A DNA stretch of 64,000 nt, taken from contig NW_026889771.1 of the NCBI RefSeq assembly GCF_033153115.1, positions 14,880,001 to 14,944,000 on the forward strand, in the 5' to 3' direction. Below the pieces are notes generated by a model. The model saw nothing but the letters and a program-made list of their open reading frames with translations. It had not been told where the DNA came from and did no database searches. Position 1 is the stretch's first letter; every line of letters starts with the position of its first letter. The translations under genes and the position numbers were made by a program. Positions 42,781 to 63,648 of this stretch are shown here, piece after piece. This stretch comes from Saccostrea echinata. Taxonomy: Eukaryota.

Positions 42781-42924
42781 CTTGACACTGGGTATAGGTT
42801 TCTTTGGAGCATTGGGGGGTTTCTGGAGTTCTGGAATATTCTCTTCACTCAGGAGGTCTTTCTTCCAAATTTCATTTTTCAGTGACTCTCTCTTAACCAA
42901 ATATAGTCTAAATGATAGGAGATT
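42781..42924 (-). pseudogene. DPYD: DPYD exon 21-equivalent (144 nt, open but diverged)
   Basis: NLLSFRLYLVKRESLKNEIWKKDLLSEENIPELQKPPNAPKKPIPSVK versus the DPYD pattern KLPSFGPY..KRPIPTIK. AG/GT borders are intact, and conserved PSFGPY has become LSFRLY. Confidence 0.7.
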
Positions 42925-43145
42925 CTGAAGGAAAATAGACTAAGTGTAAATTATTCATGAGGAAATACATGTAAAACTGCAAAATATTTTTTTCATAAAA
43001 CTTATTATTTAAAACAACTGAGGTTGCATTATTTTTTACAGCATGACACCCATACATCATTTAATTAATGACCTTCCTCTCCGGTGATATCCTTGAACTT
43101 TGGTACACCCTTCTGCCCATATATTTTATCCACTAAATGACTTAC

Positions 43146-43248
43146 CTCTCCAATAATATCTTTGACCTTCAATACAGGTTTTCCAAGTTGATGGGGTTCA
43201 GTAATCCTCAATAATGGTGTATTCCTTGTTGTGAATAGCATTGCAAAT
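43146..43248 (-). pseudogene. DPYD: DPYD exon 20-equivalent, copy A, with internal ~77-nt deletion
   Basis: ICNAIHNKEYTIIEDY / TEPHQLGKPVLKVKDIIGE|gtaagt. The central part present in the copy at 48956-49129 is missing between gta microhomologies, giving a frameshift and stop. Confidence 0.8.
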
Positions 43249-44359
43249 CTGCAGCATAAAATGAGAAATTCAAAGGAAATGTGGTCTTGTAAAAGCATGA
43301 AGAATCTTTTCACTGTTAAAAAAAAACAAAAATTGTACGTTAAATTCAATATCCGAAGCAGGTCTGGTAGTGTGCATCCCTAGATGCATCATCCATGGAA
43401 GGTTGGTCAGCACTAGGCTTAAAGTAACTTAGGAATGAACCTCCTCAAAAGACTTTAATCTGGTAATTCATTTGAAAAATGTAGACCAGAACTAAAATCA
43501 GAAGCAAGTCTAGTAGCTTTTATCCCTTGATGCGTTTTCATCCATGCAAGTTTAGGCAACATAAAGCTTATAGCTACTAGGGATTGAGACCTGCTCCAAA
43601 ATTTTAACCTGCTACAAACACATTACCCTGGTCATTCCTAAGAAAAATATTTTCTAAAAATGCAGCATCTAAAACCTAATTGGGTACTATGAAACATACT
43701 AAATGAATCATCCATGCAAATCTGATCAATATAGGACATGGAAATCTGCTGAGATAGGACACCGACGCCAAAGATATTACGTACGTTCTTTGTTGAGGTG
43801 AGCTAAAATACTGCTCGAATAATGTTTGTTGAGAGAAAACACTTGAAAATATAAGTACATGAACTACATGCATTAAACATGCATCGTTATTTGAATTGAA
43901 GAAAACAATGTATCATATATGAAAATAATTTGTTTTACTTCTCATCAATCTTTTAGAAACAGGCATTTTTAATCAATCAATAAAACATAAGTTAATTCTT
44001 TTATTATCTTAAGCACTAAAATGTCCTTTAAAGTTCCAAAGTTCTGCGCCGATCAGATTGTTTCTCTCTTTCGTTTTTGTTTACCAGAGCTGTCATGTCA
44101 CTTGAACATACAAAATTCTTAACGATTAAGTGCATCACCTAATAGAATATTTAGCGATTGCTGATCGGATAAAAAGGTATGTTATATTCTATTTGTAATA
44201 GTTTTATCATTTTAGAATACATCATTACCAGAATCTGATATTTCTGCTATAGAATCAGATTGTTTGATTAAAAAAAAATTATTATATAAAATACTCAGTA
44301 TTCTATTAAAATCTTTTACAGTTTTACAATTACAAGAAGATAGAAAACATGTTTTTTAC

Positions 44360-44575
44360 CTTGTCAAGAGAAAAAGTTTTGGTCAGTGCGAATCCCCATC
44401 CAGCCTCAAATGCCCGCCTGATCATAGTACTGCTGGTGGTGGAGGTGGCACTGGCCAGACCAAAAGGATTGGGGAACTTCAACTCACATATTTCTACATT
44501 CACATCCACTTTATCAATTGGAGTGAAGAACTTGGGCAGAGATGGAATGGACGGAATAGGAATTCCATGTAATGC
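44360..44575 (-). pseudogene. DPYD: DPYD exon 13-equivalent, copy A (216 nt, open frame)
   Basis: [72 protein letters not shown]|gt has the hallmark NPFGLAS and [22 protein letters not shown] motifs. Its length matches human exon 13 (from memory). Confidence 0.9.
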
Positions 44576-45080
44576 CTCTAAAATTTATAAATAATGTTTG
44601 ATAAACAGGTTTTTTTTACCTTAATCATGTTTCTCTTCCTCATTGCAGTTTATAGAGAAAGGTGAATCTTGGTGATAAAGATAAAATTGTAATGTAAATT
44701 CAAGAATAGTTTTCCTTATATGTTCATCAATTCATTAATCACACAAAAAAAAACAACAAAAAACAAAAACCAAACAAAAAACAAACAAACAAACAAACAA
44801 AAAAAAAACACACACACACATGCAACTAATTCAAACACTTAAATATATACAAATGTACGCATATTTGCAAACTACGTTCCACTGAATAAATATATTCATA
44901 TACTTTTGACATTAAAATTTTCTCTTCATTTGTTTTGTCCCCCCCCCCCCCATTACAAAAAAAAATAATTTTATTCCGTCTTTTTTCTGTCCCAAAAATG
45001 ATAATTTCTTTGAAATATGAGTAGACATAATTGTTATCTGTAAGCTATCTGTGAAATATTTAAATCAATTTTCTACCATC

Positions 45081-60422: not shown

Positions 60423-61642
60423 TTAAAAGTCTGGTGGATGAAGTGGTCTCTGAGAACATGAAGCAGCTAGACCAGATAGAGCACTCACTGCTGGAAGATT
60501 TAAAAGCTCAAGATAAAACTTTTAATGATTACATCGCCTATCTAAACAACCTAATTAAGGAGTTTCAGGAATTCCTCTCCTCACCAGATCCAACAAAATT
60601 AACTCTGACACTCTCTTTGGTAGACATGGAAATCCAACCAATACCAGAGTCGACAAAACCGGTATCACCAGTATTTACTGCTGGTCAATATGGCAAAGAG
60701 GATGTTGTTAAATTACTGGGTAAAATAAGTATTCCAGAGATAAAACCAGAAAGAAGGAATATAAAGCCAATGGATATTCCATCTAGTCTAACACCAAAGA
60801 AACCTACAGGTAAACAGTTAAAATCTGACAAAAGGAAATTTAATGTGAAACAAACACTGTCTCTATCTTCCTCTGTCACTGAGGTCAGGGAGTTCACAGT
60901 ACCAGGTGTTGACGATCTATTCCATATATCAATAGATCAGTCAGACAGACTCTGGGGCAGTGATAATGATGGTAACCTTGTCCAAACAGATCTAGAGGGG
61001 AGTCAGTTACAGAAGATAGTAACCAGTGGTGAATTTGGATACCACACAGTGACACAGGACGGGGATCTGATCTTTACAGACACAGACAACAAAGTCATAA
61101 ATAGGGTAACTCTGGATATTAATATCACTAAATTCATTAAAACAGGAGATTGGGCACCAATCAGCATACACTCTTCCCACATCAATGGGGACATACTGGT
61201 GGGGATGAGGAAGGGTAGAGAGGCTAAATTGACCAGGTACAGCAAGACAGGGAAAGAACTACAGAACATAGAAAGGGATAACAAAGGACAGAGACTGTAT
61301 AGTGACCCATACTACATAACAGAAAACATCAATGGAGATATCTGTACATCAGAGAATGAAAAGGCAGTAGTGGTGGTGAATAAATCAGGACAGCACAGAT
61401 TCTTCTACAAAGGTCAGGGGTCAGTGTTCCATCCCTTAGGAATCTGTATTGATGTCCTTGGTCACATATTAGTGTGTGATCTGTACAATGTTCACCTCCT
61501 TGATCAGGATGGTCAGTTTTTATCTCTACTAATCACACGAGAAACAGGGATTTATCCTATCAGTGTATGTATGGATGATGAGAACAATCTTTATGAAGGA
61601 GATGTCGATGCCAGAGTTATAATGTACAAGTATCTTCAGTGA
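60423..61642 (+). pseudogene. 5'-truncated TRIM-like copy 5 (second half of coiled coil plus full NHL propeller; open 402-codon frame)
   Basis: Homology to the paralogues begins abruptly at ttaaaagtctggtggat. Promoter, first exon and B-boxes are absent. It ends YKYLQ* with a 3' flank homologous to copy 3. Confidence 0.85.
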
Positions 61643-62717
61643 TTCTTATTCTTAAATCTAACAATTATGTGTATGTCATTATTTTTACTTAAATTAAACA
61701 GAATTATATTTATCAGAGATTTAATTTTGCCTATCTATTGATGCAACAGAATTATCTAATGTAAGTTTTAGAATAATAGATAACCAAATGTGTGATAAGA
61801 CCGAATCACTAGAGATAAATGTCAAATTTTCCTGTTACTTAATTTTTCTAAAAGGGATCTTTGCTTCATGGACTGATTGTTTATTTGAAATATATTTGTA
61901 AATGAAATACTTCTTGCATATTTTTTTTATTTTTATTTTTTTTAATTTGTCATCATATATATATATATATTATATTCAATGTATAAGACCACCAACCTTT
62001 GAGTTGCTTTTCAAGAATAAATAAGATAAATAATATTTAAGAAAAATATAACAAAATGATGCAAACTGAGAATTTTCATTTGATCCAGGAATTGATATTA
62101 TTCATTAAATAGGGATGGTCATCAAAACATACACAATGTATATTGTGATAGACATACAATACTCATCCAACTAATACTCTTAAAAGAGAGATGGCTGTTG
62201 ATTACATGTGCATGTTAAACAAAAAAATATTTGATAAACATATATGCCCCTCCTGTGACAATTTTAAAGGGAATTACTTTACGTGTAAATTTATTATAAT
62301 GTCTGTAACGAAAATGAAATCAATTGGTCATCTTTTAGTCAAAGGCAAAAATAATTCTGAGTTTGATCTCTAACAGACCTCAATATCATTATGGGTAATA
62401 TACATCTTACAGGGTACCAAAATACCAAAATTGATGTTTGTACAGCGAATGGTTCTGACGAAACATCTTCTTATGTCTAGTATATATGTGTTTGATCGTT
62501 GCCCTTTGAGCTTGTGACCTCAAAATCAACAGGAGTCATCTACTCCTCAAGGGGAAACAAAAGTGCCAAGTTTGGTGTCTCTCAAGCAAATGGTTCTCAA
62601 GATACTGAATGGAACAAGATTTCACTAAGTCTAAGAGTTTGATCCTTCAGTAGGGTTTTAGTTTGTCAACAGAAATGCTAGTAAAAGTTAGATGTACTTT
62701 CACCAATACGACCAAAC

Positions 62718-62902
62718 CTGTAGATATTTGTGAATGTACCAAGAGGCCTGTTCTCCATCATTGACAGACTCTACTGTTGTCTGGGCCACCCCTGCTAGAT
62801 CCCCTCCACAGAATACCCAGGGTTCACTGGTCTGCATTGTCTTGGAATCCACCTCAGGTAATCCCCATCTTTTCATCTTGACTGGACTCATGGCATCAAT
62901 AA
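62718..62902 (-). pseudogene. DPYD: DPYD exon 12-equivalent (185 nt, open)
   Basis: [61 protein letters not shown]|gt, with AG/GT borders. Conserved NDGK appears as NDGE. Confidence 0.92.
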
Positions 62903-63464
62903 CTATAATTTAAAAAGAAATCATTATTGATCAATTTCAACTATGAATTGAACATCACTGAAGCATTGTCAGTGCTAACAAGAAAACCACAAGTGGAGAA
63001 TCCTAACAAGAGAGCACATCAGTTCTGATATCAACTAATATTGACATTTCCAACTGTTTTCTCTGTGACAACTCTTTGAAAGTTAAGTGTGTTGGTTTCT
63101 TGATATTTACAACTGAACCTAAATTTTGCCAAATGAAAGGTCAAGTGTCTAATATGCATGTCAATTTCCTGTGGCTGTCTTTGTGTCTGGCACCAGTGGG
63201 CTGGGACTACGGAAAATATGATATTCTAAATCTATCAGACAACATTTTAGAGTTATATTTACATTTTTATTTCACAAATAAATGTAAATATAAGTAAATG
63301 AAATACATGTACCAACAAGGGCACTTCAAAGCAGAGCATCCCTTCACAAAAAAAGCATATCAATCCTGATATCTTGTCCGTTATGCAAATTATCCCATGT
63401 TTCCAACTGTCGTCAATGGCCTGGCATACCCAATAAACTAGGCAGTGATGCCTTAAATACATAC

Positions 63465-63648
63465 CATCCGATTCAGTCAATCCTGAGCCAAATGCGGCTG
63501 ATCTTTTCCTCGTCTTCCTCGTATTTCCCGTCATCATCCTGCTCTGTTCTGACAAACTCCATTCCTGTAATCACACCATTTTTTGTGATCACTTTTCTGG
63601 GGGCCAGAAATGGCAAGAATTCACATTTCTCCTCTTTGCCAATTCTAT
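63465..63648 (-). pseudogene. DPYD: DPYD exon 11-equivalent with two frameshifting deletions
   Basis: IELA(K)/[44 protein letters not shown]/../[12 protein letters not shown]|gtatgt. There is a 1-nt loss near 63635 and an ~26-nt loss near 63500, and the shifted frame hits TGA. The gene presumably continues beyond the window. Confidence 0.88.

What the first reader, a model, noticed from the sequence alone, without database searches (positions are those of the whole stretch)
42781..63648. A housekeeping gene shredded by its nested passenger: DPYD exons co-amplified antisense with the TRIM genes
On the - strand DPYD exons occur as 11, 12, [TRIM5, TRIM4], 13B, 20B, [TRIM3], 13A, 20A, 21, [TRIM2, TRIM1]. 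In both repeats exon 13 sits ~0.9-1.1 kb upstream of a TRIM start and is followed by exon 20 with no trace of exons 14-19, so that deletion predates the duplication. The simplest model is that a single-coding-exon TRIM nested in DPYD intron 12 was amplified by unequal crossing-over within a duplicated, dying DPYD copy. Selection kept the TRIM ORFs while the host exons decayed. The exons act as fossil markers of the amplification unit. Only exon 12 is readily recognisable in the ORF track.
Basis: partly seen in the sequence, partly recalled or inferred. Interest (0 to 1): 0.72.

Follow-up and report, generated by a model that had tools for sequence, protein, structure and literature searches.

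The report
Nested TRIM amplified with DPYD fragments
In an oyster, a TRIM-like gene sits backwards inside an intron of the intact housekeeping gene DPYD, and repeated tandem copying of DPYD's rear half likely produced five more copies of the TRIM-like gene, set among dead DPYD exons: a real and clear case of a known kind of gene-cluster growth.

Summary
Real, not an assembly artefact. An intact 23-exon DPYD (1036 aa, all introns GT-AG) ends 4.8 kb beyond the window. The window holds decayed tandem copies of the gene's rear part (exon 6 to the 3' flank). A locus-specific 'flank to exon 6' joint recurs four times, once between T2 and T1. Corrections: (1) no trace of exons 1-5, so the copies were likely truncated from birth and are not a dying full-length DPYD; the live gene is the likely template, and a 1-kb tract round exon 12 was likely converted from it later. 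(2) T4 and T5 are broken and lie in different units; T1 has a late frameshift; only T2 and T3 are clean. (3) The shared end of homology after exon 13 comes from an insertion in the live gene, not a shared deletion junction. A shared loss of exons 14-18 is supported only by T3 and T4 being sisters. Saccostrea cucullata has same-clade TRIMs beside DPYD. The layout works like the human RCCX module: ordinary mechanism, unusual nesting.

The parts
63465..63648 (-). Dead DPYD exon 11 (unit A), 1-nt and 26-nt deletions. The start of unit A (first joint, dead exon 6), the intact 23-exon DPYD (G000:C22:14948778-14977784, -) and its nested gene T6 (G000:C22:14960024-14961742, +) lie beyond the window end
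62240..63355 (-). Intron 11 - exon 12 (62902-62718) - intron 12 tract of unit A, 87-98% like the live gene; likely later gene conversion
60423..61642 (+). T5: TRIM-like copy lacking its first ~166 codons, joined to DPYD 3' flank across a 4-nt TTAA microhomology (about 13 kb of the unit deleted)
59174..60426 (-). Second joint: 3' flank, spacer, dead exons 6 and 7; start of unit B. Exon 6 shares its frameshifts with the unit A copy
52722..54429 (+). T4: TRIM-like pseudogene (+1 frameshift near 53171, in-frame stop near 54160, -2 and -10 deletions)
51654..51847 (-). Dead DPYD exon 13 (unit B), three frameshifting deletions
49467..51457 (.). Decayed LINE-like reverse-transcriptase fragment and a 166-nt-period repeat element lying over unit B's exon 13/19 junction
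   Evidence: RVT_1 E 1.8e-4, below the curated cut-off
48956..49129 (-).
45663..47381 (+). T3: intact TRIM-like gene, 572 aa (unit C)
44360..44575 (-). DPYD exon 13 copy (unit C), 92.6% to the live exon, frame and splice sites intact
43146..43248 (-).
42781..42924 (-).
40143..41854 (-). End of last DPYD exon (41854-41801), 3' UTR and 3' flank; end of unit C and partial third joint
35884..37608 (+). T2: intact TRIM-like gene, 574 aa
33921..34262 (-). Faint fourth joint (flank plus spacer, same order and orientation) between T2 and T1
   Evidence: E 3.6e-7 and 0.0088 in 264 kb
31203..32908 (+). T1: TRIM-like gene with a net 1-nt loss near 32810 that changes the last ~30 codons; orthologue P0182 in S. 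cucullata is intact

Best explanation
An intact DPYD carries an antisense RING-less B-box/coiled-coil/NHL gene in intron 12, and the window is a decayed tandem array of DPYD's rear part (exon 6 to the 3' flank), likely built by unequal crossing-over with the live gene as template, in which the nested gene was copied whole while the DPYD pieces lack the first five exons. Shown: the live gene with its nested T6; four copies of one joint; exon remnants in gene order; one clade T1-T6; broken T4 and T5. Inferred steps: (1) a TRIM-like gene from this oyster family was inserted into intron 12, probably in the Saccostrea line and probably from the related cluster 0.4-0.75 Mb away on the same contig; (2) a tandem duplication from intron 5 to the 3' flank made a 5'-less DPYD copy that was dead from birth but held a complete TRIM with its own promoter; (3) further unequal crossovers made more units, the oldest (T1, T2) now farthest from the live gene; (4) one unit lost exons 14-18 and duplicated [TRIM-exon 13-exon 19] internally (T3, T4); (5) deletions, transposons and gene conversion from the live gene reshaped the units; (6) purifying selection kept T2, T3, T6 and until lately T1. 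The proteins are likely coiled-coil dimers that present a variable six-bladed NHL propeller as a binding module, with no ubiquitin-ligase activity of their own; an immune or stress role is my best guess (about 55%, untested).
For: Live 23-exon DPYD with T6 in intron 12. All 29 of 29 scored DPYD matches in the genome lie at this locus. The flank-plus-spacer DNA has long matches only here (4 of 16 matches; the other 12 are a ~100-nt repeat), and a profile finds a fourth copy between T2 and T1, mostly outside that repeat. Exon 6 copies in units A and B share the same frameshifts. T1-T6 form one clade: 100/100 on DNA, 100/100 on protein with six S. cucullata proteins. T3+T4 97.6/98. 21 raw frameshifting indels in 1635 nt of exon remnants (about 14 after merging split and shared ones by hand) against no net frameshift in T2 or T3. 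dN/dS 0.16-0.38 in B-boxes and coiled coil, 0.39-0.64 in the propeller. S. cucullata: DPYD XP_062573893 and TRIM XP_062573894/5 are consecutive on a 53,010-nt contig; DPYD XP_062571059 and TRIM XP_062571061 share a 47,242-nt contig; the live DPYD and T6 are likewise consecutive. Model: 24 strands at residues 317-570, best match NHL domain of TRIM2, E 8.7e-16.
Against: T1 and T2 carry no DPYD exon; their tie to the array rests on the clade, on 400-650 nt of upstream match that may be the TRIM's own promoter, and on one faint joint. The branching order among T1, T2, T5/T6 and T3/T4 is unresolved and differs between gene parts. The joint spacer could not be aligned to intron 5 of the live gene, so the first breakpoint is not located. 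No shared junction for the loss of exons 14-18 was found, and unit B seems to keep about 20 nt more of intron 13 than unit C (AT-rich, weak). The S. cucullata link comes from accession order and contig length, not from DNA. No domain-wide dN/dS clearly above 1, so nothing here shows immune-type diversifying selection.
Confidence: 0.82

Rival explanations
1. One reading: DPYD was first duplicated whole, the second copy decayed, and its nested TRIM was amplified inside the dying copy.
For: Remnants run in gene order from exon 6 to exon 23; T3 and T4 are sisters; exon 13 of unit C has dN/dS 0.17 (6 non-synonymous, 10 synonymous changes), as if it was once under selection.
Against: No remnant of exons 1-5 in 128.7 kb. 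Flank-to-exon-6 joints recur, and DPYD 3' flank lies between T5 and T4, so the array is several units and not one copy. All remnants pooled give dN/dS 0.42, about what one neutral and one constrained lineage would give.
Confidence: 0.08
2. T1 and T2 are an older TRIM cluster that lay downstream of DPYD; one of them seeded intron 12, and only T3-T5 were made by duplicating DPYD pieces.
For: T1 and T2 are the most diverged (dS 0.40-0.57 against 0.27-0.30 among T3-T6), have no DPYD exons, and T1 has an S. cucullata orthologue.
Against: A flank-plus-spacer remnant in the right order and orientation lies between T2 and T1, and T2 follows unit C's 3' flank; all six genes share one orientation.
Confidence: 0.07
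3. The repeats are uncollapsed haplotigs or mis-joins of the assembly.
For: The tract round exon 12 in unit A is 87-98% like the live gene. T1's single late frameshift could be a base-calling error.
Against: TRIM copies are 74-85% alike in DNA and joints 80-85%, far from allelic (oyster allelic divergence of a few percent is recalled); each unit has its own deletions and transposons; no N gap lies in the array; contigs of three runs of one study match T3 with 0-2 differences, up to 574 nt; S. cucullata has its own members of the clade.
Confidence: 0.02

Closest known systems
Human RCCX module (STK19-C4-CYP21-TNX); PMC8362596, passages read
   Same: Tandem segments whose ends cut neighbouring genes, leaving truncated passengers (TNXA, STK19B) beside whole genes; opposite-strand overlap; unequal crossover and gene conversion between live gene and dead copy.
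   Different: In RCCX the whole genes are neighbours that overlap TNX only at the 3' end, and one to three near-identical segments are usual. Here the whole gene is fully nested in an intron of the cut gene, and five units have diverged 15-25%.
Nested genes of animals; PMC3814207 (abstract read), PMC5174743 (start of abstract in listing)
   Same: Short young duplicate inserted in an intron, on the opposite strand, evolving faster than its host (TRIMs at most 76-82% between the two Saccostrea species against 97.7% for DPYD).
   Different: Here the nested gene went on to multiply by duplicating most of its host; the abstracts seen do not describe that.
Primate chromosome 11 TRIM 'reservoir'; PMC3228819, passages read
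   Same: Tandem TRIM cluster with birth and death, pseudogenes and gene conversion.
   Different: Those are RING-to-B30.2 genes copied in segmental duplications; these are RING-less B-box/NHL genes, and the passages seen mention no host gene.
TRIM-NHL proteins (TRIM2, TRIM3, TRIM71, Drosophila Brat, Thin, Mei-P26)
   Same: B-box, coiled coil and six-bladed NHL propeller; best sequence and fold matches are these NHL domains.
   Different: No RING and no filamin domain found; only about 20% identity in the propeller; one coding exon; a large oyster family (83 matches at E<=1e-30 from 76 scored of 1749 candidates). Database names such as 'E3 ubiquitin-protein ligase TRIM36-like' do not fit the architecture.

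Membership tests
TRIM (RBCC) proteins | N-terminal RING finger | tested here: not met
   No RING family in Pfam scans of T1-T5 (E<=0.01) or T6 (E<=1); the start codon follows the likely splice acceptor directly. So TRIM-like (B-box plus coiled coil; PMC2533329 lists such RING-lacking exceptions, passage read), not an orthodox TRIM.
TRIM (RBCC) proteins | One or two B-boxes | tested here: met
   zf-B_box E 4e-12 to 6e-11 in T1-T4 and T6, two stretches in T4 and T6; absent from truncated T5.
TRIM (RBCC) proteins | Coiled coil after the B-boxes | tested here: met
   Helices 108-165 and 171-218 in the T3 model; profile matches TRIM5 and TRIM28 B-box/coiled-coil regions.
TRIM (RBCC) proteins | E3 ubiquitin-ligase activity | not testable with these tools
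   No RING, so unlikely alone (inference).
TRIM-NHL subgroup | C-terminal six-bladed NHL propeller | tested here: met
   24 strands, pLDDT about 90; Foldseek best hits TRIM2/TRIM3 NHL, TM 0.77-0.80 by target length.
TRIM-NHL subgroup | RNA binding by the propeller (Brat, TRIM71) | not tested
   Binding residues were not compared.
Nested gene | Whole gene within one intron of a working host gene | tested here: met
   T6 coding exon and upstream motif lie between exons 12 and 13 of a DPYD with an open 1036-aa frame; transcript ends not mapped.
Tandem array with truncated passenger genes (RCCX-like) | Head-to-tail units with a recurring joint that cuts a gene | tested here: met
   Four joint copies, two full and two partial.
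Tandem array with truncated passenger genes (RCCX-like) | Exchange between live gene and dead copy | tested here: inconclusive
   A 1-kb tract at 87-98% amid copies at 74-85% fits conversion; no formal test was run and no DNA outgroup was at hand.
Tandem array with truncated passenger genes (RCCX-like) | Copy number varies between individuals | not testable with these tools
   No raw DNA reads were listed for the stretch.

The most novel reading that the evidence does not exclude
The intron-12 slot of the live DPYD is a turnover site: unequal crossing-over and conversion run through the working housekeeping gene, swap or homogenise the nested TRIM within each species, and throw off chimeric or deleted DPYD alleles that segregate in rock oysters, like CAH-X alleles at human RCCX. 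Hints: the young tract round exon 12; five S. cucullata TRIMs, including the one listed next to its DPYD, group with each other and not with T6 (95.7/97); and the dead exon 12 carries the Tyr found in S. cucullata's DPYD where the live gene here and four other oyster DPYDs have His.
Probability: 0.25. Interest if true: 0.55.

Novelty: new variant of a known kind. Interest (0 to 1): 0.38.

Why it matters
It is a clean record of how a nested gene leaves its host: the host's exons, flank and joints date and delimit each duplication. It shows a single-copy housekeeping gene likely serving as template for the growth of a fast-evolving oyster family that has been tied, as a broad class, to disease resistance (PMC6971885, passages read; whether those TRIMs are of this family was not checked). 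If exchange is still going on, DPYD-damaging alleles would be the cost of TRIM turnover, which population resequencing can test. It also warns annotators: the remnants and RING-less genes attract wrong names. The mechanism itself is textbook.

Tried and rejected
Shared end of homology at live-gene position 78298 (window count continued) as a shared deletion junction: rejected; the live gene has a ~370-nt insertion there with a 15-nt inverted repeat, and units B and C match intron 13 again beyond it. The 166-nt-period repeat in unit B as a marker of intron 18: rejected; it matches copies in several introns equally (71-72%). Profile searches for exons 6/7, 11, 12, 13, 19 and 20 around T1 and T2 and in two other gaps found nothing above chance. 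PDB search with a frameshifted exon 11 frame gave nothing useful. One search covered a stretch I had not meant to; unused. Expression: no listed holder is on record as RNA; the 4 of 5 listed runs that were laid are contigs guessed to be RNA, so they show presence of T3 sequence only, and uncovered parts (flanks, exon 19B) are no evidence; only 45000-49400 was laid, so the other units have no read support here. Synteny outside Saccostrea could not be read from DNA: among the best 120 of 798 hits to T6, 0 of the 15 non-Saccostrea proteins with a contig length lie on a contig of the length that holds that species' DPYD, and 13 more had no length (counted by hand); a weak hint that the nesting is limited to Saccostrea. 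Literature: nine searches; the five aimed at this locus or family listed no paper on it by title or abstract start; subscription journals and supplements were not covered. Earlier scan notes: none.
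Full report
Setting. The window is G000:C22:14880001-14944000 of a 923-Mb genome. Proteins identical to two genes of this locus are listed under Saccostrea echinata, so this is a rock oyster. I fetched 140 kb beyond the window end and 60 kb before its start; coordinates above 64000 continue the window's count. TRIM-like genes are T1-T5 from left to right, T6 beyond the window.

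tBLASTn with Magallana gigas DPYD finds every remnant named, in the stated order, antisense to the TRIMs. It also finds dead exon 6 copies and the end of exon 23. An exon-by-exon DNA search of 128.7 kb finds copies of exons 6, 7, 13 and 19 twice, of 11, 12, 20 and 23 once, and none of 1-5, 8-10, 14-18 or 21; exon 22 gave only a 25-nt inverted hit.

The live gene. An intact DPYD runs from 97784 to 68778 on the - strand: 23 exons, every intron GT-AG, 1036 codons, 92.6% identical to the M. gigas protein. All 29 scored matches to DPYD in the genome lie at this locus. Its intron 12 holds T6 (80024-81742, +), an intact 572-codon gene. Aligned upstream regions show a conserved motif about 300 nt before the start, a GT donor and an AG just before the ATG, so these genes likely have a non-coding first exon and one coding exon.

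The unit of amplification. Directly after the live gene's 3' flank comes a spacer and a dead exon 6 (67257-65852). The same flank-spacer-exon 6/7 block recurs at 60426-59174, 80-85% alike, and the two exon 6 copies share their frameshifts, so exon 6 was dead before these units split. The flank recurs at 41800-40143, and a faint flank-plus-spacer copy lies between T2 and T1 (E 3.6e-7 in 264 kb). In the genome this DNA has long matches only here; 12 of 16 matches are a ~100-nt repeat inside it. Read along DPYD the array is: live gene with T6; joint; unit A (exons 6, 11, 12, T5); joint; unit B (exons 6, 7, T4, 13, 19); unit C (T3, 13, 19, 20, 23, flank); T2; joint; T1. With no exons 1-5, the copies were most likely 5'-less from the start. 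I could not align the spacer to intron 5, so the first breakpoint is not located.

Later changes. In unit A one deletion of about 13 kb joins the middle of T5 to the 3' flank across TTAA present on both sides. Round exon 12, unit A is 87-98% like the live gene over 1 kb, while its exon 6 region is 74%, exon 11 region 82% and T5 85%; later gene conversion from the live gene is the simplest reading. T3 and T4 are sisters on DNA (97.6/98; weak on protein), which fits an internal duplication of [TRIM-exon 13-exon 19] after loss of exons 14-18. That order is not shown by a junction. Units B and C stop matching the live gene at the same base, but the live gene has an insertion there, and both match intron 13 again beyond it. 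Unit B's junction is covered by a repeat element and a decayed reverse-transcriptase fragment.

Selection. T2 and T3 are clean. T4 has frameshifts and a stop, T5 lacks its B-boxes, and T1 has a net 1-nt loss that alters the last propeller blade. Exon remnants carry 21 raw frameshifting indels in 1635 nt, about 14 after merging split and shared ones by hand; at that rate a neutral TRIM-length frame would carry about 15, so the open frames of T2 and T3 are not chance, assuming similar ages. dN/dS among T1, T2, T3 and T6 is 0.16-0.38 in B-boxes and coiled coil, 0.39-0.64 in the propeller and 0.63-1.27 in the linker with wide intervals: purifying selection, weaker at the binding end, with no proof of positive selection.

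The passenger. Pfam finds B-boxes and NHL repeats and no RING. The T3 model (101 sequences, mean pLDDT 75.6) has two long helices and 24 strands at residues 317-570; its best fold matches are the NHL domains of TRIM2 and TRIM3, as are the best sequence matches. It is a TRIM-like B-box/coiled-coil/NHL protein and not an orthodox RING-bearing TRIM. From what is known of the family (own knowledge) it likely dimerises by the coiled coil and binds RNA or protein with the propeller. An immune or stress role is a guess: oyster TRIMs as a class differ between resistant and susceptible families (PMC6971885, passages).

Relatives. T1-T6 form one clade (100/100) apart from the nine other family members of the genome in the tree. 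Four genes of the cluster 0.4-0.75 Mb away on the same contig are the sister group on DNA (99.1/99) but are not resolved as such on protein. Six S. cucullata proteins fall in the clade. One is T1's orthologue, so the array likely predates the split of the two species. Two are listed one or two accessions after S. cucullata DPYD fragments on contigs of the same length; whether nested or downstream cannot be told. The five other than T1's orthologue group together, which hints at turnover within species. Outside Saccostrea, none of 15 close relatives with a contig length shares it with that species' DPYD, a weak sign that the nesting is young.

Artefact. Units differ by 15-25% and have private lesions; no gap lies in the array. 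Contigs from runs X1-X3 (one study, guessed RNA) match T3 with 0-2 differences, up to 574 nt.

Comparison and verdict. The layout works like human RCCX, where tandem segments leave truncated TNXA and STK19B beside whole genes and exchange with the live copies (PMC8362596, passages). Nested genes and TRIM birth-and-death clusters are also known (PMC3814207 abstract; PMC3228819 passages). The variant here is that the multiplied gene lies wholly inside the cut gene, and the live host seems to be the template. My searches listed no paper on this locus; genome papers in subscription journals and supplements were not seen. Observation confirmed, interpretation partly supported, new variant of a known kind, interest 0.38.

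Noticed in passing
window 6825-7634 and 9845-10192 (+): Exon-like open frames of an unidentified spliced gene; no Pfam match at E<=1.
   Followed up: partly
window 21958-23049 (+): Long, basic, low-complexity open frame (364+ codons) running up to the 138-nt N stretch; no Pfam match.
   Followed up: partly
window 45115-45335: The conserved upstream motif of the TRIM-like genes is expanded to 4.9 tandem 45-nt copies before T3; it could change T3's expression.
   Followed up: no
L006:6630-6990 (window count continued 70630-70990): The donor end of live DPYD exon 20 is repeated about five times in 52-nt units inside intron 20, giving spare donor sites.
   Followed up: no
window 44360-44575: Unit C's exon 13 keeps its frame and both splice sites with dN/dS 0.17 beside intact T3; conversion, chance or a role in T3's regulation are all open.
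   Followed up: partly
window 26726-28114, 30315-30474, 34270-34850, 50882-51457: Copies of a common ~166-nt-period repeat element, also abundant in the live DPYD's introns.
   Followed up: no
G000:C22:15380022-15715139; C40, C75, C77, C7: Further clusters of the same TRIM-like family; whether any lies in a host intron was not checked.
   Followed up: no
L016:5540-9628 (window count continued 169540-173628, +): A 1363-codon open frame that looks like an LTR-retrotransposon polyprotein (by eye); observed only.
   Followed up: no
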